15,911 nucleotides of DNA from IMG/VR virus record IMGVR_UViG_2541047698_000016, positions 1 to 15,911 of that record; one strand, 5' to 3'. How positions within the stretch are numbered: the first letter of the stretch is position 1; each line of letters starts with the position of its first letter. This DNA is from a virus. Taxonomy: Duplodnaviria > Heunggongvirae > Uroviricota > Caudoviricetes. Of this stretch, positions 1,440 through 15,911 are shown one piece after another. The position numbers and the translations under genes were made by a program. The notes beneath the pieces are model-generated. The model did no database searches. It was not told the DNA's origin and saw only the letters and a program-made list of their open reading frames with translations.

Positions 1440-1446
1440 CTGTTTC

Positions 1447-1596: not shown

Positions 1597-1622
1597 CAAA
1601 AAAGCCCCTCGACTGAGGGGCT
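1597..1622 (-). terminator. Rho-independent terminator downstream of ogr
   Basis: Hairpin GCCCCTC-GACT-GAGGGGC at 1604-1621. On the minus strand it is followed by a T-run (plus-strand A-run at 1598-1603), about 15 nt after the ogr stop. Confidence 0.5.
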
Positions 1623-1634
1623 TCCTGTTTGTAA

Positions 1635-1853: not shown

Positions 1854-1934
1854 CGCGAGCACCTCTTCCGGTTTTGTTGATGGTGCCATTTTAGTTAATT
1901 TATCCTTATAAAACAAACAGATAAAATAAAGACA

Positions 1935-3098
1935 TCACTCATCATCTTCTGTTTCGTACTCCACATCAGAAAGCCTGACCTCAAGCTCTAAGGACGTCGT
2001 GAAGCCGCTATTATTCAGAAAATGTGTCACCTTAGTGATTGTCCAGTCCTGCTCGTCTATGACGCGCTTAAAGCCTGACACTTTGACCGGCGTTTCCGTG
2101 TAAATATCTGCCCGACCAGTAGCCAGACTGATGGAGAACTCCGCAACGCCCCGTTGCAGCTTATCCCACTTCGCCTGAGCGGCGCGCATGGCCTGCGCTT
2201 TCGTGGCATATACCGTGGTCAGGGCAAAAACGTTGTCAGCCTCACCAGCCATGTATTCACCTTCGCGTGCTTCCGGTACTTTTGGCGCTTTCTTCTGCGT
2301 GACTGGTTTCGCTTTCGGGTGCTCCAGTGCGCGCAGGTGTTTCTCTTTCTTTTTGCGTTTCAGTTTTACCTTCTGCTTTTGTGGCTTCGGGTCTTTGGTG
2401 TGTAACCACTTTGCCGTTACGCCGGTATAGGCGCCACGGTCAGCAATCGCAAAATGATGACGGTCACCGTCGCTGCGGGTGATGGTAATCTGCGGGATTT
2501 TTTTACCGCTGGCAGTCACCCCCTGCCCCGCTTTGAGAAACAGCAGTTTTCCCATTTTTACCGACACCTCACCGCCGTTGCGTTCTGCAAGACGGGTCAG
2601 GAATTTCGCATCAGACTCCTGCGACTGGTCGATGTGCGGGATTTTAATTCCGGCCAGTGACGGAGCGACACTGGCTTCCAGTCTGTTACGGGAGGCTATC
2701 GCCTCAACAATCGCACCGAGCGTGGTGTCATGCCAGGAGCCTTCACGGCGGGAATTGAGCGTCCCGCGGAAATCTGCACTCCGGGCGCGGATGGTGACCA
2801 CATCCGGTGCGCCCCGGTGTTCAACCTCATCAACGGTAAATTTCCCTTTGCATACCAGGGCAAAACCTTTCCAGCCGATATACACCGTCAGGACAGCGCC
2901 ACGAACCGGCAGCCCGACCTGCCCGTCGGCATCGTTCAGTTCAATATCAAGCTGGTCAGCCTCAAAGCCCCGGTTATCCGTCAGGGTCATGCTCATCAGA
3001 CGGTCGCTGATATTGCCGGTAATATCCCTGCTGTCGAGCATCAGCATGTAATCCGGCGTCAGCGTACTGCCTGCATCAAATGTCAGCGCGTCCAGCAT
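1935..3098 (-). CDS. D: Tail protein gpD (late control D), 387 aa
   Basis: Length and sequence match my recollection of P2 gpD. Position between U and ogr is canonical, and the start ATG overlaps the U stop (TAATG). Confidence 0.88.
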   Translation of the reverse strand: MLDALTFDAGSTLTPDYMLMLDSRDITGNISDRLMSMTLTDNRGFEADQLDIELNDADGQVGLPVRGAVLTVYIGWKGFALVCKGKFTVDEVEHRGAPDVVTIRARSADFRGTLNSRREGSWHDTTLGAIVEAIASRNRLEASVAPSLAGIKIPHIDQSQESDAKFLTRLAERNGGEVSVKMGKLLFLKAGQGVTASGKKIPQITITRSDGDRHHFAIADRGAYTGVTAKWLHTKDPKPQKQKVKLKRKKKEKHLRALEHPKAKPVTQKKAPKVPEAREGEYMAGEADNVFALTTVYATKAQAMRAAQAKWDKLQRGVAEFSISLATGRADIYTETPVKVSGFKRVIDEQDWTITKVTHFLNNSGFTTSLELEVRLSDVEYETEDDE

Positions 3099-3577
3099 TA
3101 TCCCGCCCCCGTCATACCCGTGAATTTAGTCGCCATACTGCCAGCCTTACCGATGAGCGATTCCGCCTGTTTACCGATATCGCCATAAAGCGCGGCCAGT
3201 GATTCATCAACGCGGGTGAGCGACAACGTAAAATCAATTTTCCGGGGTGTGCCGTCTGCAAAGAAAATACTCCCTGTTTCACTCACCCTGCTGATGACAT
3301 ACATGCCGTAAATCATGCCGGTGCCATCCAGCAACGGCCACGCCCGGCCTTCCTCTGCCATCAGCCTGAGCGTGGTCATCGTCAGCTTGCCGCCGGTCAG
3401 TTCTGGATAAAGCACACCGGCAAGCGTGATGTTTTCCTCACCCACACCGAGAAACTGGTAGGCGTCCCGTTTACCGATACGGGAATTTGACGGCCAGCGA
3501 TAATCTGATTCACGCTGCATGGTCTGGTGTGGCAGCGTCTGGCGCATAAAAACAAACATACCTAACGCGAGCATCAT
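3098..3577 (-). CDS. U: Tail protein gpU, 159 aa
   Basis: Size and position between T and D match P2 gpU. Start codon lies 15 nt downstream of the T stop. Confidence 0.85.
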   Translation of the reverse strand: MMLALGMFVFMRQTLPHQTMQRESDYRWPSNSRIGKRDAYQFLGVGEENITLAGVLYPELTGGKLTMTTLRLMAEEGRAWPLLDGTGMIYGMYVISRVSETGSIFFADGTPRKIDFTLSLTRVDESLAALYGDIGKQAESLIGKAGSMATKFTGMTGAG

Positions 3578-3591
3578 TTTTCGTCACCTCC

Positions 3592-6039
3592 TTAACCGTC
3601 ATGCATCATGCTGGCACGGGCGCGCGCACGTTTATCCCGCTCGTATTTTTCGAGCGCATCCTGTAAATGGCGGTCGAGCTGTGTCCCCGGCGCAGTACCG
3701 CCCGTCAGATTGATGTGATATTCGTTTTTACTCTGGTCCACATAAGAGCGGCCAGCCGGTGCCGTGACCGGCTGGTAAGCCTGATACCCCGCATAAGAGC
3801 CGGTCGCCGGAATATAATCACCTGTGCCATACGTGGCGGCATGAGTTCTGGCGGCAGTCTGGTCAAGTGCGTCAGACTCTTTGTTGATGACGCCGAGTTT
3901 TTCCAGTACCCAGTCAATACCGCTGCGCAGTTTGTTGAACACATTAAGCGGCAGCATCAGCGCGTCAGCCAGTGCCTGCCCGAACATGACCCCCGTGTCA
4001 CGGCAACTGTTCAGGGTGTCCTGAGTGGCTTTGACCGGGGCAATCAGGTTTTTAAACCACTGCCACGCGGCCTGTAACTTTTCACCCAGCCAGTCAAACA
4101 CCGGCTTAAGTGGCGTGAACAGTTCCCCCACCGGCGCAAATGCCACTTTCAGCCCTTCAACCACACCGCCAAAGAATGCGCTGACAGGCTCCCAGTATTT
4201 ACGGATAAGCAACGCCCCGGCGACAATTGCGGCCACCACGGCCACAACCGGCCAGCTAATCGCCCCGATGGCGGTCATAACAGCACTGCCAACCGTCGTG
4301 AAGATTGCCCCCATTGCGCCTGCTGCCGCGATGATGGCATTGATGCCGGTGATAACCGGCCAGGCTACCAGACCAATGGCACCGATGATGCCAATAAGCG
4401 CCAGCGCGCCACCGACAATGAGGCCGATGGTTGACGCCAGTGATTTGTTTTTCTGGATCCAGCCGTCGAGTTTTAACACATACTTTGTGGCCGTCTGCGT
4501 GAGCTTACGCAGTGCGCCTTCCTGCTGGTCAAACAGGTCAGTCCCCACCGCCTCATAAGCGGACTGAAACTCCTTAAATTCACCGCCGAGGTTGTCCTGC
4601 ATGATATTTACCAGCTCTGCGGTCTTTCCGTCTGAGGCTTTAAACGCAGCGGTCAGTTTGTCCAGCTTTCCGGTTGAGGCGGCAGTCATCAGCACGGCGG
4701 CGGCTGAACTGGCCTCCTCCCCGAAAATGGTTTTCATGTATTCAGCCTGCTGGGCAGTACCGAGCCGGTTTTTCTCAAAACTGGCCTGCATTTCTTTCAG
4801 AATGGTAAATACTGGTCGGGTGTTTCCCTTGCTGTCTGAGGTTTTCACACCAAGCTCTTTGAGTGCATCCCATGCTTTTCCCGTCGGTGCCTGCAGGCGG
4901 CTTAACACGGCACGGCTTCCCGTCCCCACCATTGAGCCTGTGATTTTTGCATCATGCAGCGCCCCGACCATTGCGGCGGTTTCTTCAATGCTGACACCGG
5001 CATTTTTTGCCACTGGTGCGGTATAGGTCAGCGCATCGCTCATGCCGTCAAAATCAGCGGCGGTTTTGTTCATCGTCATGGAGAGAACATCCCCGATATG
5101 AGCGACCTTATCGTTTGAAAGCTGAAAGGCGGATTTCATCCCCATCAGCAGGGCGGCGTTTTCTTCCATTGTGCGACGGTTCGCCAGCGCCATATTCAGC
5201 GTGACCGGCGTTGCCGCCTGAATGGCATCAACATCCCCACCGGCTTTCGCAATAATAATCTGCGCACCAGCTGCATCATCTGCCGAGGCTGCGGTATTGT
5301 CGCCGAGCTGACGCGCCTGCTTGCGTAGTGCAGCCATTTCGGTGGAGTCTTTTGCCACACCGAGCACGGCCTGCAATTCTGAGTTTTTCTGCGCAAACTC
5401 ATAACCGGGCATCAGCAGCTTAACTCCGGCCATCGTTCCCGCCGCCGCAATCCCCACACCGGCAGCGCCCACCGAGGCCATATTTCCGGCCAGTTCCTTT
5501 CCGGCCTGATAACGCTGTTTTACTGCGTTAAGTTTTGCCTGTTGTGCACTGACACGCGCCAGCGCGTCACGCTGCCGGTTAAGCTGTGCGGTGGTTTCAC
5601 TGATACGGTTTTTCAGTCCTCGTTCATCATGCGCCAGATTACGGGTATTAATACCCGCCTGACTCAATTCCTGACGCTGGCGCTGTACCGACAATCTCAG
5701 GCTGTTATATTTCACCTGTAACTCAGACGCATTTTTACGCGCGGCTTCCATTGCCTTTGCCTGTGCATTTGTCGGTCGTTCAGTATTTTTAAACTGGACA
5801 GCCAGAGCTGCGGCTTCCTGTCTGGCTTTTTTCAGTTCCTGACCAGTCACGGCGAGCTGTGCACTGGTCTTGCGGAATCCCTCAATACGGGATGCGTGAC
5901 CGTTCAGCTCGCGCAGTGATTTTTGTGTTTCCCGGATATCCCCCGACAGCGATTTGCTCGCTGTGCGGATGGATTTAAACGGGCGGGATGCCTGGTCAAC
6001 AGCCCTGAGCAATACCTGTAATTTTACATTGTTACTCAT
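3592..6039 (-). CDS. T: Tail tape measure protein gpT, 815 aa
   Basis: Long coiled-coil-rich N-terminal half, an Ala/Gly-rich hydrophobic central segment and a C-terminal domain, typical of tape measure proteins. Start ATG overlaps the E+E' stop (ATGAGTAA). Position is canonical. Confidence 0.88.
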   Translation of the reverse strand: MSNNVKLQVLLRAVDQASRPFKSIRTASKSLSGDIRETQKSLRELNGHASRIEGFRKTSAQLAVTGQELKKARQEAAALAVQFKNTERPTNAQAKAMEAARKNASELQVKYNSLRLSVQRQRQELSQAGINTRNLAHDERGLKNRISETTAQLNRQRDALARVSAQQAKLNAVKQRYQAGKELAGNMASVGAAGVGIAAAGTMAGVKLLMPGYEFAQKNSELQAVLGVAKDSTEMAALRKQARQLGDNTAASADDAAGAQIIIAKAGGDVDAIQAATPVTLNMALANRRTMEENAALLMGMKSAFQLSNDKVAHIGDVLSMTMNKTAADFDGMSDALTYTAPVAKNAGVSIEETAAMVGALHDAKITGSMVGTGSRAVLSRLQAPTGKAWDALKELGVKTSDSKGNTRPVFTILKEMQASFEKNRLGTAQQAEYMKTIFGEEASSAAAVLMTAASTGKLDKLTAAFKASDGKTAELVNIMQDNLGGEFKEFQSAYEAVGTDLFDQQEGALRKLTQTATKYVLKLDGWIQKNKSLASTIGLIVGGALALIGIIGAIGLVAWPVITGINAIIAAAGAMGAIFTTVGSAVMTAIGAISWPVVAVVAAIVAGALLIRKYWEPVSAFFGGVVEGLKVAFAPVGELFTPLKPVFDWLGEKLQAAWQWFKNLIAPVKATQDTLNSCRDTGVMFGQALADALMLPLNVFNKLRSGIDWVLEKLGVINKESDALDQTAARTHAATYGTGDYIPATGSYAGYQAYQPVTAPAGRSYVDQSKNEYHINLTGGTAPGTQLDRHLQDALEKYERDKRARARASMMHDG

Positions 6040-6459
6040 TCGTGTTTCCGCTTCGCCGGAGCGCCTTTTCGCGCCATGTGATGAGTTCGGTCAGGCTCAT
6101 GGGATACAGTTCTGATGGCGGCCAGTGAAATATCACTGCCACATCCGCCATCAGGTCATCGACCGAGAGATTTTTCGGAAACGTCACTGCACCGAGTTCG
6201 GCGACAAAAAACCGACCACCTTACCGGCCAGCGCCACAAGGTCAGGCAGTTCCAGCGCGGCGACCTCCTGTTCGGTCAGCATCGGTGCCGTCATGCGCGG
6301 CAGCACTTTAATCAGTGCATCGACTTCGGAGTTCGCGACCGCAGCCAGACTGACACCGCGCAGCGTCCCGGCATTGGGTTTCATCAGCGTGACCTGTTCG
6401 ATAACCTGCTCACCACGCTTGACCGGATTGTCCAGGGTAATCACATTTTCTTTGTTCAT
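6032..6459 (-). CDS. E+E': Tail assembly chaperone gpE+E', about 141 aa, made by -1 programmed ribosomal frameshift at plus 6205-6211
   Basis: After a -1 slip at T_TTT_TTG the reading frame stays open for 58 codons (...FFVAELGAVTFPKNLSVDDLMADVAVIFHWPPSELYPMSLTELITWREKALRRSGNTNE*) and ends at TAA 6032-6034, overlapping the T start. This is the architecture of P2 E/E+E' and lambda G/GT. Confidence 0.7.
6184..6459 (-). CDS. E: Tail assembly chaperone gpE, 91 aa (zero-frame product)
   Basis: ORF ends ...KVVGFLSPNSVQ*; size and position immediately upstream of T match P2 gpE. Confidence 0.85.
   Translation of the reverse strand: MNKENVITLDNPVKRGEQVIEQVTLMKPNAGTLRGVSLAAVANSEVDALIKVLPRMTAPMLTEQEVAALELPDLVALAGKVVGFLSPNSVQ
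6205..6211 (-). other. Slippery heptamer T_TTT_TTG for the E -> E+E' -1 frameshift
   Basis: Minus-strand codons GGT TTT TTG in the E frame form a canonical X_XXY_YYZ heptamer, 6 codons before the E stop. Confidence 0.65.
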
Positions 6460-6515
6460 GGTTTTCTCACTTCTGAATCAGGGTTAACCGGTCAGCCTGG
6501 CTGACCGGATGAAAA

Positions 6516-7034
6516 TCACAGGCCGATATTGCGGCGGTGTTGCTCCAGCCGGTCGACGCCGTTCACCTTCTCAATCATGTTGATGGTGTCGATTTCGACC
6601 AGCTCCTTACCGTCCATCGTCAGCCGGAAATAGGTGCAGACCACGGAGATTTTCGACTCGGTGTCTTCTCCCTGTTTACCCTCTCCGGTGTCGATTTCTT
6701 TCTGACGTCCACGCATGACTACCTCGACGGCCACCGTTTCGCCGGTATCGTCGCGCTGGTAAGAGCCTGCAAAACGAATCGGCACGGCATCCACACCGGT
6801 TGCTGCGTAAAGCTCCCAGATAACCGAATCCGGGAAACCACCGAGCGACCACTCCATTGACAGCGCATCGTCATCAAGGCCGAGGTCTACCGGTGCGCTG
6901 CCGTTCATCCCCGCACCGCGATAGTTTTCGAGCTTACGGGTCAGTTTTGGCAGCGTGACGGACTTTGCAACGCCCTGATAGCTGTAGCCGTTCAGAAAGA
7001 CGTTCATTAACTTGAGTTTGCGCGGCATTGCCAT
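6516..7034 (-). CDS. FII: Tail tube protein gpFII, 172 aa
   Basis: MAMPRKLKLMNVFLNGYSYQGVAKSVTLPKL... matches my recollection of P2 FII. Lies 12 nt downstream of FI. Confidence 0.88.
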   Translation of the reverse strand: MAMPRKLKLMNVFLNGYSYQGVAKSVTLPKLTRKLENYRGAGMNGSAPVDLGLDDDALSMEWSLGGFPDSVIWELYAATGVDAVPIRFAGSYQRDDTGETVAVEVVMRGRQKEIDTGEGKQGEDTESKISVVCTYFRLTMDGKELVEIDTINMIEKVNGVDRLEQHRRNIGL

Positions 7035-7046
7035 CGGTCAGGCTCC

Positions 7047-8237
7047 TTAATTGCTGTTAACCGAGGTGACCAGATTTGCCAGGTATTTATCGGTAATACG
7101 CTGGCGCAGGGTCAGGTTTTCGAGAGGAGGCACCGGTGTATAGTCGTAGTCGATATACAGTTTTCCGGCCTTGAGGGTTTCCGCATCGTTGGATTCTTCG
7201 CTGAACCAGCAGGTCGCATCCACGATATAGCCGTTTGTTTTCAGCTCACGGAATTTGGCATTGATGCCGTCAACGATGTCGCGAATCAGCGTTGCGGTGA
7301 TGGGCTTGTCCACCGCCCACATGTGCGCCTCAGCCATCGTGTCGGCCAGCACCTGCGCGGTGCGGGTGTAGTTTTCAAAGAGGAACAGCGGATCATCAGA
7401 GCAGGTACGGTTACCCCAGAAGCGGAAACCGTCGCGGCGAATCAGCGTAGTGACGCCTGACTCATTAAGCAGGTCAGCATCGGTGCCGGACTCCTGCAAA
7501 TCCCAGAATACAGAGGCGCTGATGCCGGTAACACCGTTCACCCCAACGTTGGACAGTGTTTTATGCCAGCCCTGCTCCTGGTCGATTTTAGCGCGCAGAC
7601 CCAGCGCACGGGCGGTGGCATACGCGGTGGCGGTGGTACTGGTGACCGTATCCCATGCGAGGAAATCCGGCCAGATGACCATCAACTCACGCTGGCTGAA
7701 ATTCTGGCGGTAGGCTTTCACCTCGGAAATAGTTTTACAGCCCCATGCGCTGATATACCCGAAAGCGCGCAGCTTCTGACAGACTGATGCCAGTGCAACA
7801 GCCACCTCTTTGGTGTCCAGTCCCGGCACGCCGAGAATACGCGGTTTAACACCGGTTACCGACTCCGCCGCCAGCAGGGCTTTCAGTCCGGTGTACTGAC
7901 CGTTTTCGTCGGTGGTGCCGATGATATTGGAAACGGTCTGCGCGAGTTTCGTTTCCTCGTCGTCGCCGGTGCCGTCTTCCACACGCACGACAACGGTGAC
8001 CGGTTTTGACTGGTCGGCGATGGCCTGCAACGATGCCGCCAGCGTGCCTTTTTTACCAGCCTTTGCAATTGCGCTCTGCACATTGGTAATCAGCACCGGT
8101 TTATTGAGGGGGAAGGTTTCCGCATCCGCATCGCTGGCCGTGCAGACCATGCCGACAATGGCCGTGGATACGGTGGAAATGACGCGGGTGCCGTCGTTAA
8201 TCTCCAGCACCTGCACGCCGTGATGATAGTCACTCAT
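7047..8237 (-). CDS. FI: Contractile tail sheath protein gpFI, 396 aa
   Basis: MSDYHHGVQVLEINDGTRVISTVSTAIVGM... matches my recollection of the P2 FI N-terminus; size is right for a sheath protein. GGAG Shine-Dalgarno 8 nt upstream. Confidence 0.88.
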   Translation of the reverse strand: MSDYHHGVQVLEINDGTRVISTVSTAIVGMVCTASDADAETFPLNKPVLITNVQSAIAKAGKKGTLAASLQAIADQSKPVTVVVRVEDGTGDDEETKLAQTVSNIIGTTDENGQYTGLKALLAAESVTGVKPRILGVPGLDTKEVAVALASVCQKLRAFGYISAWGCKTISEVKAYRQNFSQRELMVIWPDFLAWDTVTSTTATAYATARALGLRAKIDQEQGWHKTLSNVGVNGVTGISASVFWDLQESGTDADLLNESGVTTLIRRDGFRFWGNRTCSDDPLFLFENYTRTAQVLADTMAEAHMWAVDKPITATLIRDIVDGINAKFRELKTNGYIVDATCWFSEESNDAETLKAGKLYIDYDYTPVPPLENLTLRQRITDKYLANLVTSVNSN

Positions 8238-8249
8238 CCGTTTAACTCC

Positions 8250-8330
8250 GTGGTTAATGGGTGCAACTATTTTCTGTTGGGCAGAGCATGAGACGCTATT
8301 TGACCTGGCTGGTCAGTGGATGAAACAACA
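8250..8330 (-). promoter_or_regulatory. Candidate Ogr-dependent late promoter (PF-like) upstream of FI, containing the inverted repeat TGACC-N5-GGTCA at 8303-8317
   Basis: By position this must be the promoter region of the FI-FII-E-T-U-D operon. An inverted repeat sits about 50 nt upstream of a possible -10. It does not fit the TGT-N12-ACA late-promoter dyad as I recall it, so the assignment is tentative. Confidence 0.3.
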
Positions 8331-8361
8331 GATAAAGAAAAGGCGGGCAATTCGCCCGCCT
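8330..8361 (-). terminator. Rho-independent terminator closing the upstream transcription unit (G or hotspot gene)
   Basis: Hairpin GGCGGGC-AATT-CGCCCGCC at 8342-8360. On the minus strand it is followed by TTTTCTTTATCT. Confidence 0.5.
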
Positions 8362-8535
8362 GTCCTGATTTGTACTCACTCATTTTCCAACTGACTATTT
8401 ACATAGTCCAAACGCTATCAAATCTGACTGTCTGCTTTGAGCGAGGTGCTGACATCCGCATGAATGTATGGAGCTGCCGCACACTCTAAAAATGATAGAA
8501 CGTCTATATATTAATTATCCCTAAGTCCAGTTTTA

Positions 8536-9063
8536 TTAATCAATTTTATTACTTTTACCTGCAACCTTTTTATTATAGTGATAACAAGAAATAGCACTAG
8601 CAAAATAGGATTTTGTCATCGATACGAAAAAATCCAACAAATCTGCCATGTTATCAATATCAATATTTGGTTTAGTTTTACTGGCTTTAGTAATCTTCAT
8701 GTAGAAGTCCACAAACTTACTTTTTTCTTTATCCGTAATCTGATAATTCAATTGATGACTGATTTTATTTCTTATGCTGTTAAAGTCTTTTATTCTTAAA
8801 TATATTTCATCATAAGGGGGGGTTGCAGGCTCATGTTGTATTAAAGCTATTTTTTGTGAAAATGTGAGTTTTGCATCACCCCAAGCTAACGAAGGATATC
8901 TTAATCCAAGATAATCAGTAATATACTTTTCAAGGCTCAAGTGCGCAGTAAGAAAGGCACCTATGAAGGCAACGTCAACCCCATCAACACGTTCCCATAT
9001 GCTTTCATTTTCATCAGTCATACCTGTATACACAGCGGTTGATGCAAGATCTTTCCAGTCCAT
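8536..9063 (-). CDS. Hypothetical 175-aa protein in the G–FI (Z/fun-position) hotspot; candidate anti-phage / abortive-infection effector with a possible HEPN-like R-x4-H motif
   Basis: Intact ORF with AAGGA Shine-Dalgarno 8 nt upstream of ATG and its own sigma70-like promoter. Strongly AT-rich compared with flanking tail genes. Predicted soluble and mostly helical; contains ...FNSIRNKISHQ... (R98-x4-H103). I recall no homolog. Confidence 0.7.
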   Translation of the reverse strand: MDWKDLASTAVYTGMTDENESIWERVDGVDVAFIGAFLTAHLSLEKYITDYLGLRYPSLAWGDAKLTFSQKIALIQHEPATPPYDEIYLRIKDFNSIRNKISHQLNYQITDKEKSKFVDFYMKITKASKTKPNIDIDNMADLLDFFVSMTKSYFASAISCYHYNKKVAGKSNKID

Positions 9064-9098
9064 GCTTTATCCTTTTAAAGGTGAATTTAACGAGTTTA

Positions 9099-9127
9099 AT
9101 TTTATCTCAACTCAATACTTATCTCAA
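9099..9127 (-). promoter_or_regulatory. Sigma70-type promoter for the hotspot gene: -35 TTGAGA, 17-nt spacer, -10 TAAAAT
   Basis: Read on the minus strand: TTGAGA (plus 9122-9127), 17 nt, TAAAAT (plus 9099-9104). This would give a leader of about 28 nt before the ATG at 9063. Confidence 0.45.
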
Positions 9128-9452
9128 AATTTATGAGTAGAAATAACATCCACAAAAAACCATTAAAGCCCTTTTACCTCTTATTATTGATGAAAATGTA
9201 CATTTTTATAAAGAATGTCGAAGAACCTCCTCAGTGGAACTATCAACTACACATTGCAAGACTAGAGTATGTGCAAACCTTTTGACAAGGTTCTGAAATA
9301 TTCATGGTGGCCTTATTATATCAATTTATCTTCACTTTATACATTAACATAGCATGATGTTGATAATGTCCGCTCCTAGCACAGAGCGGACTGTCAGATT
9401 AGGCCTTACTCTGTACTATAGCTATGTTAACTAACACAAGAGATCATATCAC

Positions 9453-9980
9453 TTATTGCGGCATTTCCGGCCATTCAGGATTTGCAGGATCCACACGGCT
9501 GACCAGAACACTGTAGCGTTCCCATGCTTCCAGTCGGCTACGCTCCTCATCTGTTGCCATGTTCAGCCTGACAGCGCGCTCCAGTGGCAAAATCACGGAT
9601 TCAGCATCTGCAAGAAGTCTGGCTTTCCGGTTTTCTGCCTGCTGCTGCAATTCCTCTGCCGTATAAATGCGTTTAATCACTTTGCCGTCCTTAAACATCC
9701 AGTTCCCTGAAATGTCCGCCCGTCGGTTAGCAGTAATATCCGCCACTTCAACCACACTTAATCCATCTGGTCTGATAGCTGTCACATCTTTTTCCACATA
9801 GCGGATAATATTATCCTTGTCGTACGCTATTTTTATCGTGTCATCAGCAAAATACTTTTGTTCTTCGTACCAGTTCTTACCATCTTCTGTAAAAAACCAG
9901 ACAACATCAAAGTCCTTTGTCAATTGATATTGTTCAACCGTTTTTGGATTACCCGCGGTTATATTTATCAAATGCTGCAT
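9453..9980 (-). CDS. G: Tail fiber assembly chaperone gpG, 175 aa
   Basis: Conserved C-terminal ...[43 protein letters not shown] and N-terminal MQHL...GNPKT..EQYQLTK match my recollection of P2 gpG. Lies immediately downstream of H. Confidence 0.88.
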
Positions 9981-9983
9981 AAA

Positions 9984-12302
9984 TTATACCTGTGCCACGT
10001 TATACCATGTCCCGTTAATGTATTTCTGCACCGGTCTGTAATATACGCCACCAATGTTATCGGCAGAGTTTGAGCCGGTATCCTGAACAATAATGCCGGA
10101 ATATACACACCCGGACGGTGCCTGATGTGTCCATGTCATGCCATTGTTCGCAGGTTTGTATGTGGCAGCACCACCAAGCCGGATATCCCGGACATAGCGT
10201 GAATCAAAATTACTATAGTTAGATGGTGATACCTGCCCGTTAACAGCAAAAGTGATGCTGTTATCTGTATTTCTCTGACTGTAAAAATGCCAGCCTGCAT
10301 CATCACCTAATTCAGCCACCACCGGACGACTTGAGTTTCCCCACAAATTGAATGCGGCTTCCTTCGTGGATGTATTACTGCTGCTGACCGTGAATTTTTT
10401 CCCGCTACCGGCACGTACTTTGGTACTTGAGGCAATATCACCAGTAACACTCAGGCCATGCCCCATTGATACAGCACCCGTGGCATCATTTATAATCAGT
10501 GGTCTTAAATTATTATAAGTGCCTAATCTGTCACCTGATTTAGTCAACATAAAATAAGTGCTGCTGCCATCATTCCTGATAAAGAATCCATAATTGCCAT
10601 AAGCAATGCGCAGACCATTAGCACTGCTTGATGTAATCTCACCTCTTGAACGGAGACCATAAGCGGAGCTGAGTGATAATTCTTCCTGAGCATCAGTATT
10701 ACCAGTCGCCCAGCGAACTACCCCGCCCTGTACTGTTTCATGCCAGATAGTGTCTCCTTCTCCACCACGAAACTTTCTGAGATATTTTTTGCCGCCTCTG
10801 GTGCCTGAACATAAGGCCGTAGACATATAGGCATTCTGGCTTCCGCCATCCTGATTAATCGTTCCGGTCATTGCGTCGCCCTGACGATTCCAGTCACGAC
10901 GCCAGCCGGGGGAGTAGCCGTCCCCATGATTAATGTAAGTGAATTGCGCGCTGGTTGTACCGCCACCGCTTGATGTTGTCGGCGTGGTCACTCGGATAGT
11001 GATTGCAGATTTAGTTCCCATGACCTCGACGACACAACCAGCCAGGTGGATATCACCACATCCGGTATCCGTAATGATTTTGTTATTTGCATATGACCAG
11101 GAGCCTTTGCACATCCAGTACGGATGATTAAATGCACCACGGGAATCCAGCCATTCAATAAACTGAGCGGTTGTCCAGTTTCCGGCTTCAGTGCTCAAAG
11201 CGCCGCTATAAGCACGACAGGCACCGATATTTTTCGTGAAGGTATCCTTTCCCGGAATATCCGCACCGTTCTGATCTTTCTGAAGACGTTTTTCAGCATT
11301 GTCATAGGCAGACTTCACTGCTTTTGGCGTTGCCGCGAGGGTTTCAGAATCACTGTTGGTGGCGCTACTGAGCTGGACAAGCCCTTTTCGCGCTGTGGTG
11401 GCATCCTGTGCAGTGTATTTCCCGTTAGCAAGGTCATACGCTGTCTTAACCGCCTTTGGCGTTGCCGCAAGCGTTTCAGAATCGCTGTTGGTGACGCTAC
11501 TTAGCTGGACAAGGCCTTTTCGCGCGGTGGTGGCGTCCTGTGCGGTATATTTCCCGTTAGCCAGGTCATATGCTGCTTTTACCGCTTTTGGTGTTGCAGC
11601 GAGCGTTTCAGACGTGCTGTTGGTGGCACTACTGAGCTGGACAAGACCTTTTCGCGCTGTGGTGGCATCCTGCGCAGTATATTTCCCGTTAGCAAGGTCA
11701 TACGCGGCCTTTACCGCTTTCGGCGTTGCGGCCAGTGTTTCAGACGTGCTGTTGGTCGCACTGCTTAACTGAGTAAAACCTTTGGCGGTCAGCGAGGCGT
11801 CCGGGTGACGTCGTGACTGTTCGTGCTCTGCAATTTTGTCATCAACGTAATCCTGCGTCGCCATCACTGTTGTGGTGTCAATGGTCAGCTCCACTGAGGC
11901 CACACTGCTGACGATGATGACCATGCGACAGGTCTGCGAACGCCCTGAGCCTTCGGCGAGAGCTGGCTTATAACTTTCGGCCATGTTCGCCACAGCAATT
12001 AACGTTCCCGCATCATCGTACAGGCCAAGCTCACGCATCCAGAAACCGCCCACCTCCGGCGGAATAACCAGCTCTGCGATAATATAATTACTGTTTCGTT
12101 TGTCCTGGCTGATTTTGTTCAGCGCATGTCGCCAGACTTCGTGGATAAGCCCGGTCTGTCCGGCATCCGGGACAGGCAATTTACCACCGCCATCCCCGAC
12201 GGCCATCGTGGTAATGTTGACCTTCCGCCCTCCCGGTGCGGTTGCCGCTGCCAGCTTTGCTGCACCGGCAGTGGTGATAACGGTTCTGAATTTTGTGCTC
12301 AT
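9984..12302 (-). CDS. H: Tail fiber protein gpH, 772 aa, with internal tandem repeats and a mosaic receptor-binding region
   Basis: N-terminus MSTKFRTVITTAGAAKLAAATAPGG... and C-terminus ...RPVQKYINGTWYNVAQV are P2 H-like. The central region carries 44-aa tandem repeats and a Cys/Trp-rich domain. Confidence 0.88.
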   Translation of the reverse strand: MSTKFRTVITTAGAAKLAAATAPGGRKVNITTMAVGDGGGKLPVPDAGQTGLIHEVWRHALNKISQDKRNSNYIIAELVIPPEVGGFWMRELGLYDDAGTLIAVANMAESYKPALAEGSGRSQTCRMVIIVSSVASVELTIDTTTVMATQDYVDDKIAEHEQSRRHPDASLTAKGFTQLSSATNSTSETLAATPKAVKAAYDLANGKYTAQDATTARKGLVQLSSATNSTSETLAATPKAVKAAYDLANGKYTAQDATTARKGLVQLSSVTNSDSETLAATPKAVKTAYDLANGKYTAQDATTARKGLVQLSSATNSDSETLAATPKAVKSAYDNAEKRLQKDQNGADIPGKDTFTKNIGACRAYSGALSTEAGNWTTAQFIEWLDSRGAFNHPYWMCKGSWSYANNKIITDTGCGDIHLAGCVVEVMGTKSAITIRVTTPTTSSGGGTTSAQFTYINHGDGYSPGWRRDWNRQGDAMTGTINQDGGSQNAYMSTALCSGTRGGKKYLRKFRGGEGDTIWHETVQGGVVRWATGNTDAQEELSLSSAYGLRSRGEITSSSANGLRIAYGNYGFFIRNDGSSTYFMLTKSGDRLGTYNNLRPLIINDATGAVSMGHGLSVTGDIASSTKVRAGSGKKFTVSSSNTSTKEAAFNLWGNSSRPVVAELGDDAGWHFYSQRNTDNSITFAVNGQVSPSNYSNFDSRYVRDIRLGGAATYKPANNGMTWTHQAPSGCVYSGIIVQDTGSNSADNIGGVYYRPVQKYINGTWYNVAQV
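11300..11790. repeat. Tandem repeat, 132-bp unit, about 3.7 copies, in frame within H (44-aa phage tail-fiber repeat)
   Basis: Unit starts at 11341, 11473, 11605 and 11737, with a partial copy from about 11300. Copies are roughly 90% identical and encode (Q)LSSATNS(T/D)SETLAATPKAVKAAYDLANGKYTAQDATTARKGLV. Confidence 0.85.
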
Positions 12303-12312
12303 TATTCCTCAC

Positions 12313-12843
12313 TTATCCGGGGTAAACCGTAATTACATCGCCGTCGTAAGCCACACCACCGGCGAACAGGTAGCCGGGAATGTCCCGGGTAATGTTCAGG
12401 CCAATAAGGTGGCGGCTTGCAGGTTTGGCATCAGCAATCAGCCGTTCCATTTCCTGATACATTGCCTCTGTGATGCCGCTTTCCAGTACACCAATATCAA
12501 GCCGGAAGGTGCCGGGCGGGTCACTGTTTTCCCACCACTCCGTCACGTTGATGAGATAGCCGAGCGGCTCCACCACACGCCGGATTGCACCTATTGTGCC
12601 TTTATGACAGTGGATGAAATACGCATCGCGGATAACGGCGCGTTTTGTCGCTTCCGGCCACTTTTCATCCCACCTGTCGACCGAAAACGCCCACGCCAGC
12701 CACGGCAGCAGATTTGCCGGACAGGTGTCCGGGTTCCACAGCTCACGAATACTGACCGGCGTTTTTTCAATTTCCGCACAGGCTTTTGCGGCGGCGACCT
12801 CAAGCGGTGATGAGCCGGTCGGCAGCAGTCGCGAATCACTCAT
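12313..12843 (-). CDS. I: Baseplate protein gpI, 176 aa
   Basis: Size and position between J and H are canonical; start overlaps the J 3' end by 8 nt. Confidence 0.85.
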   Translation of the reverse strand: MSDSRLLPTGSSPLEVAAAKACAEIEKTPVSIRELWNPDTCPANLLPWLAWAFSVDRWDEKWPEATKRAVIRDAYFIHCHKGTIGAIRRVVEPLGYLINVTEWWENSDPPGTFRLDIGVLESGITEAMYQEMERLIADAKPASRHLIGLNITRDIPGYLFAGGVAYDGDVITVYPG

Positions 12844-13744
12844 CCGAGCCTCCGGTCACGACGCGGTATTCGGTACAGAAAGACGCCTGCGTACTGTTGA
12901 GCACGATGTCGGCCAGTGGTGCAGCCAGTTCGACACGCTGCACACCTTCCACATGCAAAGCGGCATAAATGGCAGACAGACGGATGTCGCGCCCCAGCCT
13001 GTGCTGTGCCGTGATATACGCTTCCAGCTTTTTCACAGCGGCAGCGCGGATGGGTTCGCTTTCGGGACCAGGGTAAAGGTAAAGCGTGGCGTTTATCTGG
13101 TATTCAACGATGGCGGCAGACTGCACGGTCACGCGGTCGGCCACCGGCCTGACGTCCTCGCCATTAAGGGCGTTACGCACCACAGCCAGCAGGTCTTCGG
13201 ATGCGACGCCGTTATTTTCACGTGACAGCACAGAGATAGTGACGCAGGCCGGAGACGGACTGGTGACAGAGATATCCGCGACACGCCCGTCGGCACTGCG
13301 GCCATGATACTGATAGGCACCCACCGACCCGGCGACGCTTAAACCTTCAAACGCCTGCTGAATACGCAGCCGATAATCGGTGTCAGATTCCATCACTGCC
13401 GGTGTCGGCGGAATGGTCGAATCATCTGCCGGGGTGATAGTCAGGCGCGTGGTGTTGTAATTGGCACCAATCACATCAAGGTCATTACCGGCGGCACAGG
13501 CCAGCATCACCGCCCGTGCGGCCTCATTCACACGCTGACGCCAGATAAGCTCACGATAAGCATTTTCTTCCAGCAGTTTGACGAGAGGCTCAGATTCCAG
13601 TGTCAGGGTACGGGCGACCGCCTCCTGCTGATCTTCCGGGTAAAGGGAAATCAGTGTCGCCTTGCGTTCAGCGAGAATGCTTTCAAAGTCCAGCTCCTCG
13701 ACCACATCCGGTGCGGGTAGCTGGTTCAGGTCGATAATCGGCAT
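12836..13744 (-). CDS. J: Baseplate assembly protein gpJ, 302 aa
   Basis: Size and position between W and I are canonical for P2; gpJ is a gp6-like baseplate wedge protein. Confidence 0.85.
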   Translation of the reverse strand: MPIIDLNQLPAPDVVEELDFESILAERKATLISLYPEDQQEAVARTLTLESEPLVKLLEENAYRELIWRQRVNEAARAVMLACAAGNDLDVIGANYNTTRLTITPADDSTIPPTPAVMESDTDYRLRIQQAFEGLSVAGSVGAYQYHGRSADGRVADISVTSPSPACVTISVLSRENNGVASEDLLAVVRNALNGEDVRPVADRVTVQSAAIVEYQINATLYLYPGPESEPIRAAAVKKLEAYITAQHRLGRDIRLSAIYAALHVEGVQRVELAAPLADIVLNSTQASFCTEYRVVTGGSDE

Positions 13745-13748
13745 GGTT

Positions 13749-14096
13749 TCAACTCACAGGGATGGTTAATGAAAGTGGCTGGCCGGTGTCGTTGTGCTGG
13801 CCGGTTAACGTGACCGTCATTCGCCCGTCAAAACTGCGCTCAGTGGTGACGGATGACAGGGTGACGCGGGGTTCCCATTTCAGCACCGCCATGTAACAGG
13901 CGACCTTAATCTGCAACTCAAGCGCCGGGGTCTGCGGCTGGTCAATCATTGATGCCAGCAACGAGCCGTAATCACGACGCATCACCCGTGAGCCGACCGG
14001 TGTGCGCAGGATATCGCCGATACTCTGGCTGATATGCTCAAGGTCAGTGACAGTCAGGCCATCACTGCGATTCATTCCGAGATAACGCGCTGTCAT
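13749..14096 (-). CDS. W: Baseplate protein gpW (gp25-like), 115 aa
   Basis: Size and position match P2 gpW; start ATG overlaps the V stop (ATGA). Confidence 0.85.
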   Translation of the reverse strand: MTARYLGMNRSDGLTVTDLEHISQSIGDILRTPVGSRVMRRDYGSLLASMIDQPQTPALELQIKVACYMAVLKWEPRVTLSSVTTERSFDGRMTVTLTGQHNDTGQPLSLTIPVS

Positions 14097-14728
14097 AAAG
14101 GACTCCCGGTTGTGCCGCCGCTGTCGCCGGGGTGTTTATGGGTATGCAGTACCTTACCGTTTGATGAGAGTTCACCGCCGGTGTGTTCAATGTTGCCGCG
14201 CATCGTCCCGCCCTTCTGCACTTCCAGCGTGCCGGTAGTCAGTTTGTTGGTGCAGACCACTTCCGGTGTGTCCAGGGTGATGCGGGTTGATGCTTTCACC
14301 ATAACCACCGGCACCGTGGCAGTAACAGAATCAGAAGCCATCACGCTGGCCGTTTTAACTCCGCTTACCGTGAGCGCACTGGTTTCAGGTTCATACTCAA
14401 TCACCGCCCCGTCAGGGAAACGGATATGCAGGGCATCCGCCGACGCAGACGGCGCGGGGTTATCGCCGGAATAAATCCCCGGCAGAACGAACGCCGTGTC
14501 GAGTTCACCGCCCACGGCCAGAATCAGCACCTGTTCCCCCACGGAAGGTGCCCACCATGTGCGCGAACGTCCGGCGCGATGGGTCAGCCACTGAAGCCAG
14601 TCGGTGCACATGCCGCCGGTCTGCACACGGCAGCGACCGGCGTTAAGGTCGGTTTCGACGATAATACCGGTGCGGATCATGTTGCGCAGTGCACGCGCGA
14701 GTTCCTGAATATTTGCGAGAGTGTTCAT
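14093..14728 (-). CDS. V: Baseplate spike/hub protein gpV, 211 aa
   Basis: MNTLANIQELARALRNMIRTGIIVETDLNAGRCRVQTGG... matches my recollection of P2 gpV (211 aa). Start placed at ATG (plus 14726-14728) rather than the ORF-track TTG at 14746. Confidence 0.82.
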   Translation of the reverse strand: MNTLANIQELARALRNMIRTGIIVETDLNAGRCRVQTGGMCTDWLQWLTHRAGRSRTWWAPSVGEQVLILAVGGELDTAFVLPGIYSGDNPAPSASADALHIRFPDGAVIEYEPETSALTVSGVKTASVMASDSVTATVPVVMVKASTRITLDTPEVVCTNKLTTGTLEVQKGGTMRGNIEHTGGELSSNGKVLHTHKHPGDSGGTTGSPL

Positions 14729-14811
14729 GCATGTGAGATTGCACAATATATAAAAGTTATGCTATCTGGATTCATTTGTAGAACTACCAGACAACATTCA
14801 AGGAGAGCGTA

Positions 14812-15597
14812 ATGGTCAGCTATAATGTGACTAATGTGTGGGGGCTAATCGTTTTTTTCCTTTGTAGCTTTGCAGTATTAGCATTTTTTAGCTTTGGTAA
14901 AAGTAACCTTATGAGGCTTATTGCACATTATTTCAATTTTGGATATTCAGACAAAAAATTAAAAAGACTTGACCGCGAGTGGCGCGACATTCAACTATTT
15001 AAAATAATTAACGGAATCAATGTATCAGGCATTGAAAATGTGAGAATGATACAGCAGGGACTGATTGATGGAAAACTAAAAACATCGTATTTTTTTCTTA
15101 CTCGCATCTGGGGTGACATAACAAAACCACCACACATAATTAAAACAATAATTGTAATTCTGGCCAGTATTTTTTACATTCTCCTCGCATGTTACATACA
15201 CAACGTACAATCCGTTATAGTAAGGGATGCCATAGGCATACCATATAAAAACATGATGTACTATGTTTATAGTGACAAAGTTCTTTTATCCTTCAAAAAT
15301 AAAGCAGTTGAATTTAATAAAACTTATAGCCTTGCCGATTGCAAGAGACTGCAAAACGTATTTATAAAAGACACACTTCCTGAGATCGCCTGCAATAAGC
15401 TCTTACAGCTAAACGAGGAGGACTCCGAATGGTTAAGCCAGGAGATTAAAGATAATAACAGTCACAAAAAAGCATTATTAATACTATCCCTCGTCTATTT
15501 CACTTCAGGTCTGGTTATATTCCTGTCATATACAAAATTCTTTTACGCCAATAAGAAGGTTTTAGAATACAAAGCATCAAATAAAAATCACTCATAA
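14812..15597 (+). CDS. Hypothetical 261-aa integral membrane protein (3 predicted TM helices), AT-rich moron at the S–V junction; candidate exclusion/defense factor
   Basis: ATG preceded by AGGAGA Shine-Dalgarno at 14800-14805. Strongly AT-rich. Hydrophobic segments at about residues 10-28, 112-132 and 222-240. Divergent from V. I recall no homolog. Confidence 0.65.
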   Translation: MVSYNVTNVWGLIVFFLCSFAVLAFFSFGKSNLMRLIAHYFNFGYSDKKLKRLDREWRDIQLFKIINGINVSGIENVRMIQQGLIDGKLKTSYFFLTRIWGDITKPPHIIKTIIVILASIFYILLACYIHNVQSVIVRDAIGIPYKNMMYYVYSDKVLLSFKNKAVEFNKTYSLADCKRLQNVFIKDTLPEIACNKLLQLNEEDSEWLSQEIKDNNSHKKALLILSLVYFTSGLVIFLSYTKFFYANKKVLEYKASNKNHS

Positions 15598-15603
15598 ACC
15601 TCT

Positions 15604-15638
15604 AAACATTGAGCGACCAGCATGGCCGCTCAATGTTT
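15604..15638 (+). terminator. Hairpin, possible terminator for the membrane-protein gene
   Basis: Perfect 12-bp inverted repeat AAACATTGAGCG / CGCTCAATGTTT with an 11-nt loop, starting 7 nt after the stop codon and followed by TTTAATTG. The T-tract is imperfect. Confidence 0.35.
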
Positions 15639-15700
15639 AATTGCGCATCAGCCTCTGCCTGGATAAAACTAACGCTCAAGGTGAGCCAGGATAATCTCTT

Positions 15701-15911
15701 TAGACTGGCCCCCTGAATCTCCAGACAACCAATATCACTTAAATAAGTGATAGTCTTAATACTAGTTTTTAGACTAGTCATTGGAGAACAGATGATTGAT
15801 GTCTTAGGGCCGGAGAAACGCAGACGGCGTACCACACAGGAAAAGATCGCAATTGTTCAGCAGAGCTTTGAACCGGGGATGACGGTCTCCCTCGTTGCCC
15901 GGCAACATGGT
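15701..15911 (+). mobile_element. IS2 (IS3 family) left end, partial; continues beyond the window
   Basis: TAGACTGGCCCCCTGAATCTCCAGACAACCAATATCACTTAAATAAGTGATAGTC... matches the IS2 left inverted repeat as I recall it, followed by the insC start. Confidence 0.85.
15792..15911 (+). CDS. insC: IS2 transposase OrfA (InsC), N-terminal 40 codons only
   Basis: [40 protein letters not shown] matches my recollection of the K-12 IS2 InsC N-terminus; CDS is truncated by the window end. Confidence 0.85.

What the first reader, a model, noticed from the sequence alone, without database searches (positions are those of the whole stretch)
14729..15700. Second moron: AT-rich 3-TM membrane protein encoded divergently from V at the S–V junction, next to IS2
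A 261-aa ORF on the plus strand, opposite to all prophage structural genes, starts 84 bp from the V start and has a strong AGGAGA ribosome-binding site and markedly low GC. It encodes three hydrophobic helices separated by soluble segments of about 80-90 aa. The site corresponds to the S–V junction, where I recall P2 carrying an orf30-like moron. Small prophage membrane proteins in such positions often mediate superinfection exclusion or act as membrane-disrupting abortive-infection effectors. I recognise no known family. The divergent arrangement also leaves little room for a canonical late promoter for V; the only TGT..ACA dyad in the 84-bp intergenic region (14777-14793) has N11 spacing, and how V is transcribed here is unresolved.
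Basis: partly seen in the sequence, partly recalled or inferred. Interest (0 to 1): 0.72.

Follow-up and report, generated by a model that had tools for sequence, protein, structure and literature searches.

The report
Phage P2 orf30 membrane-protein gene
This is the already catalogued but never characterised gene orf30 of phage P2, an optional AT-rich three-helix inner-membrane protein gene that sits in a cargo slot where related prophages often carry anti-phage defence genes, so the guess that it is defensive is reasonable but untested.

Summary
A 261-aa ORF (14812-15597, +) lies 83 bp from the V start, on the opposite strand. It has an AAGGAGA ribosome-binding site, GC 0.34 against 0.59 for V, and three hydrophobic helices. 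IS2 follows at 15701.

It is not an unknown gene. The region is 99.6% identical to phage P2 orf30 ("nonessential"), which belongs to PHROG 2407 (function unknown).

What I add:
- The family is small and found only in Enterobacterales. It is probably a distant branch of Pfam DUF6216.
- Relatives down to 23% identity occupy the same S-V slot, divergent from V, and all are AT-rich.
- The gene is optional: about 28% of P2-type V loci in E. coli carry it.
- It evolves faster than its neighbours (dN/dS 0.46 against 0.07-0.14).
- Relatives stay intact in decayed prophages.
- Across 62 species-level loci the slot is occupied in 41. The cargo is diverse and includes PADLOC matches such as a type V retron reverse transcriptase and Ppl.

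My best reading is a lysogen-expressed inner-membrane anti-phage protein. This rests on association only. There is no homology to any known defence, exclusion or lysis protein. Novelty: already known gene, unknown function.

The parts
14812..15597 (+). orf30 coding sequence (261 aa plus stop). Predicted inner-membrane protein of the P2 Orf30 / PHROG 2407 family.
   Evidence: ORF list. 99.6% nt identity to AF063097 orf30. PHROG 2407 match over the full length, E 4e-148.
14800..14806 (+). Ribosome-binding site AAGGAGA, 5 nt upstream of the ATG.
   Evidence: Read directly from the sequence.
14836..14892 (+). Transmembrane helix 1 (aa 9-27). This is the fastest-evolving part of the gene.
   Evidence: Kyte-Doolittle peak 2.41. 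Helix 6-28 in the AF2 model. Regional dN/dS about 1.2.
14893..15135 (+). Soluble segment 1 (aa 28-108). Helical and net positive, so predicted cytoplasmic. It carries the family's best-conserved motif, D.QLFK..NGINV...DA.
   Evidence: Alignment A2. Charge counts. AF2 secondary structure.
15136..15204 (+). Transmembrane helix 2 (aa 109-131).
   Evidence: Kyte-Doolittle peak 2.59. Helix 109-134 in the AF2 model.
15205..15471 (+). Soluble segment 2 (aa 132-220). Four beta strands plus helices, with a conserved Cys pair (C177, C194). Predicted periplasmic.
   Evidence: AF2 strands 141-173. All 24 aligned family members have exactly two Cys here, and C194 is invariant.
15472..15534 (+). Transmembrane helix 3 (aa 221-241), followed by a Lys-rich tail predicted to be cytoplasmic.
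   Evidence: Kyte-Doolittle peak 2.25. Charge counts.
14729..14811 (.). Divergent V-orf30 intergenic region. It is part of the orf30 module and is replaced wholesale in prophages that lack orf30.
   Evidence: Identical to P2. Homology to empty-junction prophages stops at the V ATG and resumes at the S stop codon.
14770..14797 (-). Activator (Ogr/Delta) binding site of the late promoter pV, as annotated in the P2 record.
   Evidence: AF063097 misc_feature 10239-10266 mapped onto the window.
14093..14728 (-). Gene V (baseplate spike). The P2 record places the V-operon transcription start at its first base.
   Evidence: Pfam Phage_base_V/Phage_spike hits on the V orthologues of related loci.
15603..15639 (.). 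Strong hairpin between the converging ends of orf30 and S. The P2 record annotates it as the putative rho-independent terminator of the O operon. It could also stop orf30 transcripts.
   Evidence: P2 annotation. Folding energy -21.3 (+) and -26.8 (-) kcal/mol, z about -6.
15669..15700 (-). Last 32 nt of tail-completion gene S (stop codon plus about 9 codons), cut off from the rest of S by IS2.
   Evidence: The alignment to P2 ends exactly at 15700.
15701..15911 (+). End of an IS2 element inserted in S. It runs off the window.
   Evidence: Divergence from P2 starts at 15701. Thousands of matches annotated as IS3-like element IS2 family transposase.

Best explanation
**Shown.** The feature is orf30 of phage P2, carried by a P2-like prophage integrated beside yegQ and cyaR.
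- It encodes a 261-aa protein with three hydrophobic helices.
- It belongs to a small family found only in Enterobacterales. Members recurrently occupy the same slot between tail genes S and V, on the strand opposite V.
- It is optional, AT-rich throughout the family and fast-evolving, yet under purifying selection.
- Its distant relatives (Orf30-family and DUF6216 proteins) remain intact in prophage remnants that have lost their structural genes.
- In other species the same slot holds recognisable defence genes.

**Inferred, topology.** N-terminus out; an ~80-aa cytoplasmic helical domain; a ~90-aa periplasmic alpha/beta domain held by one disulfide; C-terminus in.

**Inferred, function.** It is a lysogenic-conversion gene, transcribed independently of the Ogr-dependent late operons and probably kept low by H-NS-type silencing of AT-rich DNA. 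It acts alone in the inner membrane of the lysogen against other phages. The most likely mode is exclusion: the periplasmic domain meets an incoming phage component or a host entry factor and blocks genome passage across the inner membrane. Identity is near certain. The confidence given is for the defensive function.
For: **Identity**
- 99.6% nt identity to P2 orf30 and an identical intergenic region.
- Full-length PHROG 2407 match.

**Conserved slot**
- Homologues at 23-31% identity sit in the same place and orientation: an Enterobacteriaceae isolate, Yersinia, Cronobacter and two unnamed assemblies.
- V and J there are 63-84% identical (W 58-76%, S 47-49%). GC is 0.30-0.35 for the homologues against 0.48-0.60 for the flanks.
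- The BL21(DE3) and E. coli C P2-like prophages carry a DUF6216 protein in the same slot, GC 0.33.
- Link to DUF6216: 10 of 24 members hit PF19723, one above the gathering score. hhalign gives E 1.4e-4 with the Cys pair aligned.

**Accessory status**
- 529 orf30 places against 1858 V places in E. coli.
- Empty junctions in 5 of 6 sampled loci.

**Selection**
- dN/dS is 0.46 for orf30, 0.14 for V and 0.07 for S.

**Retention in decayed elements**
- BL21 defective prophage.
- Serratia and Klebsiella remnants with V cut to 23-80 aa but the DUF6216 gene intact.
- A solo copy beside cyaR in Enterobacter cloacae.
- Here, S is broken by IS2 while orf30 is intact.

**Hotspot**
- 41 of 62 species-level S-V junctions are occupied by low-GC cargo of more than 30 families. 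Orf30 is the most recurrent (5 loci) and is always opposite V.
- The 10 largest cargo proteins include PADLOC matches to retron RT type V (E 7e-156), Ppl, PDC-S06, caspase and PDC-S33.

**Topology**
-.
Against: - No experiment supports any function, and no sequence or fold match points to one. There is no PADLOC hit for any of 24 members below E 0.006, and nothing informative in Pfam, the PDB or BFVD.
- No sigma-70-like promoter was detected on the orf30 strand in the 83-bp region, so expression in lysogens is unproven.
- The classical exclusion phenotypes of P2 lysogens are assigned to old, tin and fun(Z), not to orf30 (text quoted).
- From my own knowledge of P2 genetics, P2 vir1 and heteroimmune P2-like phages plate on P2 lysogens. 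That argues against exclusion of P2-type phages.
- Guilt by association is weak. Half of the large cargo proteins at this slot have no defence match, and hotspots also carry non-defence cargo.
- AT-richness partly reflects a composition rich in Ile, Phe, Lys and Asn.
Confidence: 0.4

Rival explanations
1. Abortive-infection effector. Orf30 is a latent membrane-damaging protein that senses infection, depolarises or permeabilises the inner membrane and kills the infected cell, much as RexB does.
For: - It is a multi-pass inner-membrane protein at a slot that holds abortive-type systems elsewhere: retron RT, caspase-like and Ppl-type cargo.
- AT-rich genes without an obvious promoter fit tight silencing of a toxic product.
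- A preprint on H-NS silencing of antiviral genes mentions DUF6216, BL21 and P2-like elements, but I could not read it.
Against: - It is a single gene with no sensor partner at most loci.
- The large conserved soluble domains on both sides of the membrane and the periplasmic Cys pair look more like a binding or sensing protein than a simple pore.
- No homology to RexB or other membrane effectors.
Confidence: 0.15
2. Lysogenic conversion unrelated to phages. The protein modifies or protects the host envelope, for example as immunity to a bacteriocin or contact-dependent toxin, as an envelope-stress sensor, or as a colonisation trait.
For: - Relatives of the gene (Orf30-family and DUF6216 proteins) are retained intact in decayed prophages and as a solo chromosomal copy conserved in Enterobacter cloacae. 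This shows benefit to the host without specifying what the benefit is.
- Fast evolution of a membrane protein is also typical of immunity proteins.
- One family member gave a very weak colicin-K-immunity hit, E 0.11.
Against: - No significant similarity to any immunity or envelope family.
- No toxin gene is adjacent.
- The neighbouring cargo families that could be identified at this slot are anti-phage, not anti-bacterial.
Confidence: 0.2
3. Accessory function in the phage's own lytic cycle, such as tuning lysis timing, helping tail or baseplate assembly at the membrane, or helping genome delivery.
For: - It lies between the lysis and tail-completion genes and the baseplate genes.
- Its module carries the pV promoter region.
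- It has stayed at this slot over deep divergence of P2-like phages.
Against: - It is annotated nonessential in P2.
- It is absent from about 70% of P2-type V loci, which have a 66-bp junction instead.
- It is transcribed opposite to both late operons, and the Ogr site is too close to its start codon to serve it.
- Its relatives are kept intact where the structural and lysis genes are deleted.
- No holin, antiholin or spanin family match.
Confidence: 0.1
4. A decaying or non-functional ORF with no current role.
For: - No known phenotype since the P2 record annotated it as nonessential.
- No detectable promoter.
Against: - Purifying selection, dN/dS 0.46, with 8 of 8 alleles intact.
- Architecture, motifs and the Cys pair are conserved down to about 20% identity.
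- Confident fold prediction.
- Relatives retained in remnants.
Confidence: 0.03

Closest known systems
Bacteriophage P2 Orf30 (AAD03281.1, AF063097 9439-10224); PHROG 2407
   Same: The same gene. It is 99.6% nt identical across 14729-15700. It has the same neighbours (V and S), the same intergenic promoter region and the same terminator hairpin.
   Different: There are four nucleotide differences in the ORF. In this prophage IS2 has been inserted 32 nt inside the 3' end of S. The rest of the prophage is only about 95% identical to P2, so the orf30 module looks like a recombinational mosaic.
Pfam DUF6216 (PF19723), e.g. WP_000115390.1 of the defective P2-like prophage of E. coli B/BL21(DE3) and E. 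coli C
   Same: - Same slot between S and V, on the strand opposite V.
- Similar size (268 aa).
- Three hydrophobic helices.
- A D-C...C-x-L-L Cys pair before the last helix.
- GC 0.33.

   Different: - Sequence similarity is marginal. The window protein does not hit PF19723 at E<=1.
- hhalign probability is only 53% over 112 columns.
- The first soluble segment is about 40 aa in DUF6216 against 80 aa here, and it lacks the QLFK..NGINV motif.
P2 lysogenic-conversion genes old, tin and fun(Z)
   Same: They are AT-rich, nonessential cargo at variable loci of P2-like phages, expressed from the prophage and not as part of the late operons. orf30 is one of the three classic variable loci (PMC3091744).
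   Different: Those genes have demonstrated exclusion phenotypes. No phenotype is known for orf30 (function listed as unknown). I am not aware that any of them is a multi-pass membrane protein (own knowledge, not checked here), whereas orf30 is predicted to be one.
Single-gene inner-membrane superinfection-exclusion proteins (T4 Imm, P22 SieA, HK97 gp15)
   Same: This is a functional analogy only. These are small prophage- or phage-encoded inner-membrane proteins that act alone to block genome entry, and they are typically fast-evolving and optional. The comparison rests on my own knowledge of these systems.
   Different: No sequence or fold similarity was detected. Orf30 is larger and has substantial domains on both sides of the membrane. 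Its activity is untested.

Membership tests
P2 Orf30 / PHROG 2407 | Full-length profile match to the family | tested here: met
   phrog_2407, E 4.1e-148, residues 1-261 matched to profile positions 1-261 of 261.
P2 Orf30 / PHROG 2407 | Position between S and V, transcribed opposite to V | tested here: met
   The same holds in 5 distant homologues and in 5 of 5 family members found in the species survey.
Pfam DUF6216 (PF19723) | Score at or above the gathering threshold (27.3 bits) | tested here: not met
   - The window protein gives no Pfam hit at E<=1.
- Among 24 family members, 10 hit PF19723 at E<1, but only P0027 passes the threshold (28.9 bits, full length).
Pfam DUF6216 (PF19723) | Profile-profile homology to bona fide DUF6216 proteins | tested here: inconclusive
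   - hhalign of A2 against A3: probability 53%, E 1.4e-4, 112 columns, Cys pair aligned.
- The A2 profile scores DUF6216 proteins up to 23.9 bits.
Pfam DUF6216 (PF19723) | Shared architecture and genomic slot (three helices, Cys pair, S-V junction, low GC) | tested here: met
Moron (autonomous cargo unit in a prophage) | Present or absent between conserved neighbours, with deviant composition | tested here: met
   - 66-bp empty junction in 5 of 6 sampled prophages.
- GC 0.34 against 0.59.
Moron (autonomous cargo unit in a prophage) | Own promoter and terminator | tested here: inconclusive
   - The terminator-like hairpin is strong.
- No sigma-70-type promoter was found on the + strand of 14600-14811.
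Known anti-phage defence systems (PADLOC-DB 2.0) | Match to a defence-protein model | tested here: not met
   - No hit for the window protein.
- Only three isolated weak hits (E 0.007-0.02) among 24 members.
Superinfection-exclusion membrane proteins | Located in the inner membrane | tested here: inconclusive
   This is a prediction only, based on three hydrophobic helices, the positive-inside charge pattern and the AF2 model.
Superinfection-exclusion membrane proteins | Expressed in the lysogen and blocks phage genome entry without killing the cell | not testable with these tools
   This needs transcript mapping and infection assays.
Holin / antiholin / spanin lysis proteins | Family match and co-transcription with the lysis cassette | tested here: not met
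   - No Pfam or NCBIfam lysis family match.
- The gene is on the opposite strand to Y-K-lysABC-R-S.

The most novel reading that the evidence does not exclude
Orf30 and DUF6216 proteins together form an unrecognised family of single-gene inner-membrane anti-phage determinants. They are the most recurrent cargo of a third defence hotspot of P2-like phages, the S-V junction. They are kept silent by H-NS and retained by the host after the prophage decays.
Probability: 0.3. Interest if true: 0.55.

Novelty: already known. Interest (0 to 1): 0.33.

Why it matters
orf30 is a leftover unknown in one of the best-studied temperate phages. It is common: about 9% of complete E. coli genomes carry it, and a further 2% carry the DUF6216 version.

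If it proves to be an anti-phage membrane protein, two things follow:
- It would add a single-gene, membrane-level mechanism to the P2 defence repertoire.
- It would establish the S-V junction, alongside the old/tin and Z/fun loci, as a place to mine for new systems.

As it stands, the finding is a correct recognition of a known gene whose function is unknown.

Tried and rejected
**Function by homology: nothing usable**
- Pfam, NCBIfam and PADLOC on the protein gave nothing.
- A family profile against PDB sequences gave only chance hits, E>=0.06.

**Function by fold: rejected as not significant**
- Foldseek against the PDB and BFVD gave nothing at E<=1e-3, and TM-scores were about 0.15. The top hits were claudin/TARP-like folds.
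- I rejected the claudin resemblance as a family assignment.
- The afdb50 library was unavailable.

**Searches that failed or could not be completed**
- The search for related loci with the family alignment failed for lack of a conserved block.
- The preprint 10.64898/2026.09.05.749240 mentions DUF6216, BL21 and P2-like elements and may bear directly on function. It could be indexed but not read.
- I looked for the source strain through the S::IS2 junction. No complete E. coli genome has it.

**Considered and dropped**
- The Ogr site as a bidirectional activator for orf30. Its centre lies only about 27 bp upstream of the orf30 ATG.
- AT-richness as a sign of recent acquisition. It persists across homologues that are only 23% identical.

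Full report
**1. The observation**

- It runs 14812-15597 on the + strand: 261 aa, ATG start, AAGGAGA 5 nt upstream.
- Gene V starts at 14728 on the other strand, which leaves an 83-bp divergent intergenic region.
- GC is 0.338 for the ORF and 0.593 for V.
- A hydropathy scan gives three helices, at about aa 9-27, 109-131 and 221-239, separated by 81- and 89-aa soluble stretches.
- The TGT-N11-ACA dyad at 14777-14793 is there.
- IS2 begins at 15701. Between the ORF and IS2 lie a strong hairpin (15603-15639; -21 and -27 kcal/mol on the two strands, z about -6) and the last 32 nt of gene S. IS2 therefore interrupts S about ten codons from its end.

**2. Identity**

- The stretch 14729-15700 is 99.6% identical to phage P2 (AF063097 9336-10307). 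There the ORF is annotated orf30, "nonessential". The intergenic region and the hairpin are base-for-base identical to P2.
- The protein matches PHROG 2407 (function unknown) end to end, and matches nothing in Pfam, NCBIfam or PADLOC.
- The window as a whole is a P2-like prophage. It is about 95% identical to P2 from 1507 to 15700, and it is integrated next to yegQ (1-1362, Peptidase_U32) and the CyaR sRNA (1445-1530).
- The literature I could search lists Orf30 as "unknown". It names the orf30 locus as one of three classic variable regions of P2-like phages (PMC3091744; PMC6823313).
- Recent surveys of defence hotspots in P2-like phages focus on the old/tin and Z/fun loci and mention "the tail genes" only in general terms (PMC9122126; bioRxiv 2024.10.15.618418; PMC13586616).

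**3. The promoter question**

- The P2 record annotates the activator-binding site for the late promoter pV at 10239-10266. The record places the V-operon transcription start at the first base of V. Because the sequence is identical, V transcription here is not an open problem.
- The entire S-V intergenic region is part of the orf30 module. In prophages without orf30 the junction is 66 bp of unrelated sequence. Homology to P2 stops exactly at the V ATG and resumes at the S stop codon.
- A GTTGT half-site about 65 nt upstream of the V ATG is present in the P2-type and empty junctions. The same motif also lies upstream of V in the 741-bp-ORF junction and in four distant loci.
- What remains unresolved is orf30's own promoter. 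No sigma-70-type site was found on its strand.

**4. The family**

- Word-indexed searches found only close relatives plus one protein at 39% identity.
- An exhaustive HMMER search of 1.84 billion cluster representatives found 34 hits. About 20 are full-length proteins of 250-270 aa at 21-33% identity.
- Named members come from Enterobacterales: E. coli, Yersinia, Cronobacter, Enterobacter, Gibbsiella and Serratia.
- The alignment (A2) keeps the three helices and a motif in the first soluble segment (D.QLFK..NGINV...DA).
- Every member has exactly two cysteines in the second soluble segment. C194 is invariant, and C177 is present in 21 of 24.
- Charge distribution points to N-terminus out, first loop cytoplasmic, second loop periplasmic (hence a likely disulfide) and C-terminus in.
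- AlphaFold2 with this alignment gives a confident model (pLDDT 83.8, pTM 0.72). The first loop is helical, and the second is a four-stranded sheet plus helices.
- No solved or viral predicted structure resembles the model significantly.

**5. Link to DUF6216**

- Ten of the 24 members hit Pfam PF19723 (DUF6216) weakly. One hit is full-length and above the gathering score.
- The defective P2-like prophage of BL21(DE3), which is also in E. coli C, carries a "DUF6216 family protein" of 268 aa. It sits in the same S-V slot, opposite V, with GC 0.33.
- It has the same three-helix layout and a D-C...C-x-L-L cysteine pair.
- The profile-profile comparison is only suggestive: probability 53%, E 1.4e-4.
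- I treat Orf30 as a probable distant branch of DUF6216, not as a demonstrated member.

**6. Genomic behaviour**

- *Same slot over deep time.* Homologues at 23-31% identity lie between S and V, divergent from V. They occur in P2-like prophages of Yersinia, Cronobacter, an Enterobacteriaceae isolate and other unnamed assemblies, sometimes as tandem paralogues or with extra genes. V and J there remain 63-84% identical. All homologues are AT-rich, GC 0.30-0.35.
- *Optional.* orf30 is found at 529 places in 506 of 5426 complete E. coli genomes. V is found at 1858 places. The DUF6216 version is in 111 genomes, and an unrelated 741-bp ORF is in 77.
- *Faster evolution under constraint.* dN/dS is 0.46, against 0.14 for V and 0.07 for S. 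The first helix is the most variable region.
- *Retention in decayed elements.* Relatives of the gene survive where the prophage has decayed. The DUF6216 gene is intact in the defective BL21 prophage, and in Serratia and Klebsiella remnants where V is reduced to 23-80 codons. An Orf30-family gene survives as a solo copy right after cyaR in Enterobacter cloacae.
- *A true cargo hotspot.* I surveyed 80 species-representative loci recovered with V. In 62 of them both S and V could be placed. Of those, 21 junctions are empty and 41 carry 0.8-3.1 kb of low-GC cargo from more than 30 unrelated families. The Orf30 family is the most recurrent (5 loci) and is always opposite V. Of the ten largest cargo proteins, five match PADLOC models: retron RT type V (E 7e-156), Ppl, PDC-S06, a caspase-like protein and PDC-S33.

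**7. Interpretation**

- The evidence shows a genuine, selected, host-retained accessory membrane protein in a slot that other P2-like phages use for defence genes.
- I favour an exclusion-type mechanism at the inner membrane (0.4) over a membrane-damaging abortive effector (0.15). The protein acts alone and has sizeable, conserved domains on both faces of the membrane.
- The case is associative only. There is no functional homology, no proven expression and no phenotype reported for orf30.
- From my own knowledge, P2 vir1 and heteroimmune relatives plate on P2 lysogens, so any target is unlikely to be P2-type phages.
- A non-phage conversion function (0.2) and a lytic-cycle accessory role (0.1) remain open.
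- A 2026 preprint on H-NS silencing of antiviral genes mentions DUF6216, BL21 and P2-like elements. It may already address this, but I could not read it.

**8. Verdict**

- The object is an already known gene (P2 orf30) of unknown function. It is neither a new element nor an unexplained promoter arrangement.
- Interest is modest. The useful outputs are the predicted topology, the probable DUF6216 link, the conserved slot, the retention pattern and the S-V hotspot evidence. Together they make the gene a reasonable candidate for a simple phage-challenge experiment.

Noticed in passing
window 15669-15911: IS2 is inserted 32 nt inside the 3' end of tail-completion gene S, so this prophage is probably defective for tail completion. 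None of 5426 complete E. coli genomes contains this junction.
   Followed up: partly
window 1-1916: The window starts with host yegQ (Peptidase_U32, 1-1362) and the CyaR sRNA (1445-1530, Rfam 100.7 bits), followed by the prophage ogr gene (1635-1916). The prophage therefore sits at the cyaR-adjacent site. In Enterobacter cloacae the same site holds a solo Orf30-family gene with no other phage genes (L023).
   Followed up: partly
window 8238-9452: The Z/fun slot between FI and G carries different low-GC cargo (GC about 0.32; ORF 8536-9063, 175 aa) and not P2 fun(Z). Only phage vB_EcoM-569R9 matches it. It has no Pfam or PADLOC hit.
   Followed up: partly
window 14729-14811; L003 3137-3202; L008 3137-3213: The pV promoter region differs completely between orf30-bearing and empty S-V junctions. 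A GTTGT half-site is nevertheless kept about 65 nt upstream of the V ATG in the P2-type and empty junctions, and a perfect ACA lies 10 or 11 nt beyond it. The same motif is also present upstream of V in the 741-bp-ORF junction and in four distant loci.
   Followed up: partly
L037-L116 (S-V junctions of 80 species-representative P2-like prophages): The S-V junction behaves as a cargo hotspot. It is occupied in 41 of 62 loci, by more than 30 families. These include a type V retron reverse transcriptase (L115), Ppl (L092), PDC-S06 (L108), a caspase-like protein next to an Orf30 homologue (L076) and PDC-S33 (L038). In 18 loci S was not found within 3.5 kb, and I did not resolve these.
   Followed up: partly
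L022 6001-7658; L024 4965-6816: Some S-V junctions carry two tandem Orf30-family paralogues (P0026 plus P0037). Others carry an Orf30 homologue preceded by two further genes on the same strand, one of them DUF7480.
   Followed up: no
window 14729-15700 versus the rest of the prophage: The orf30 module is 99.6% identical to P2, while the prophage overall is about 95% identical. Synonymous divergence from P2 is 0.013 in orf30 against 0.105 in the adjacent V gene. This suggests recent recombinational exchange of the module.
   Followed up: no
L013 66-1743; L016 685-2571: Two distant family members on short metagenomic contigs lie outside any recognisable prophage context. One is divergent from a DsbA-like gene. 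The other follows two 49-aa ORFs and sits next to a GNAT acetyltransferase.
   Followed up: no
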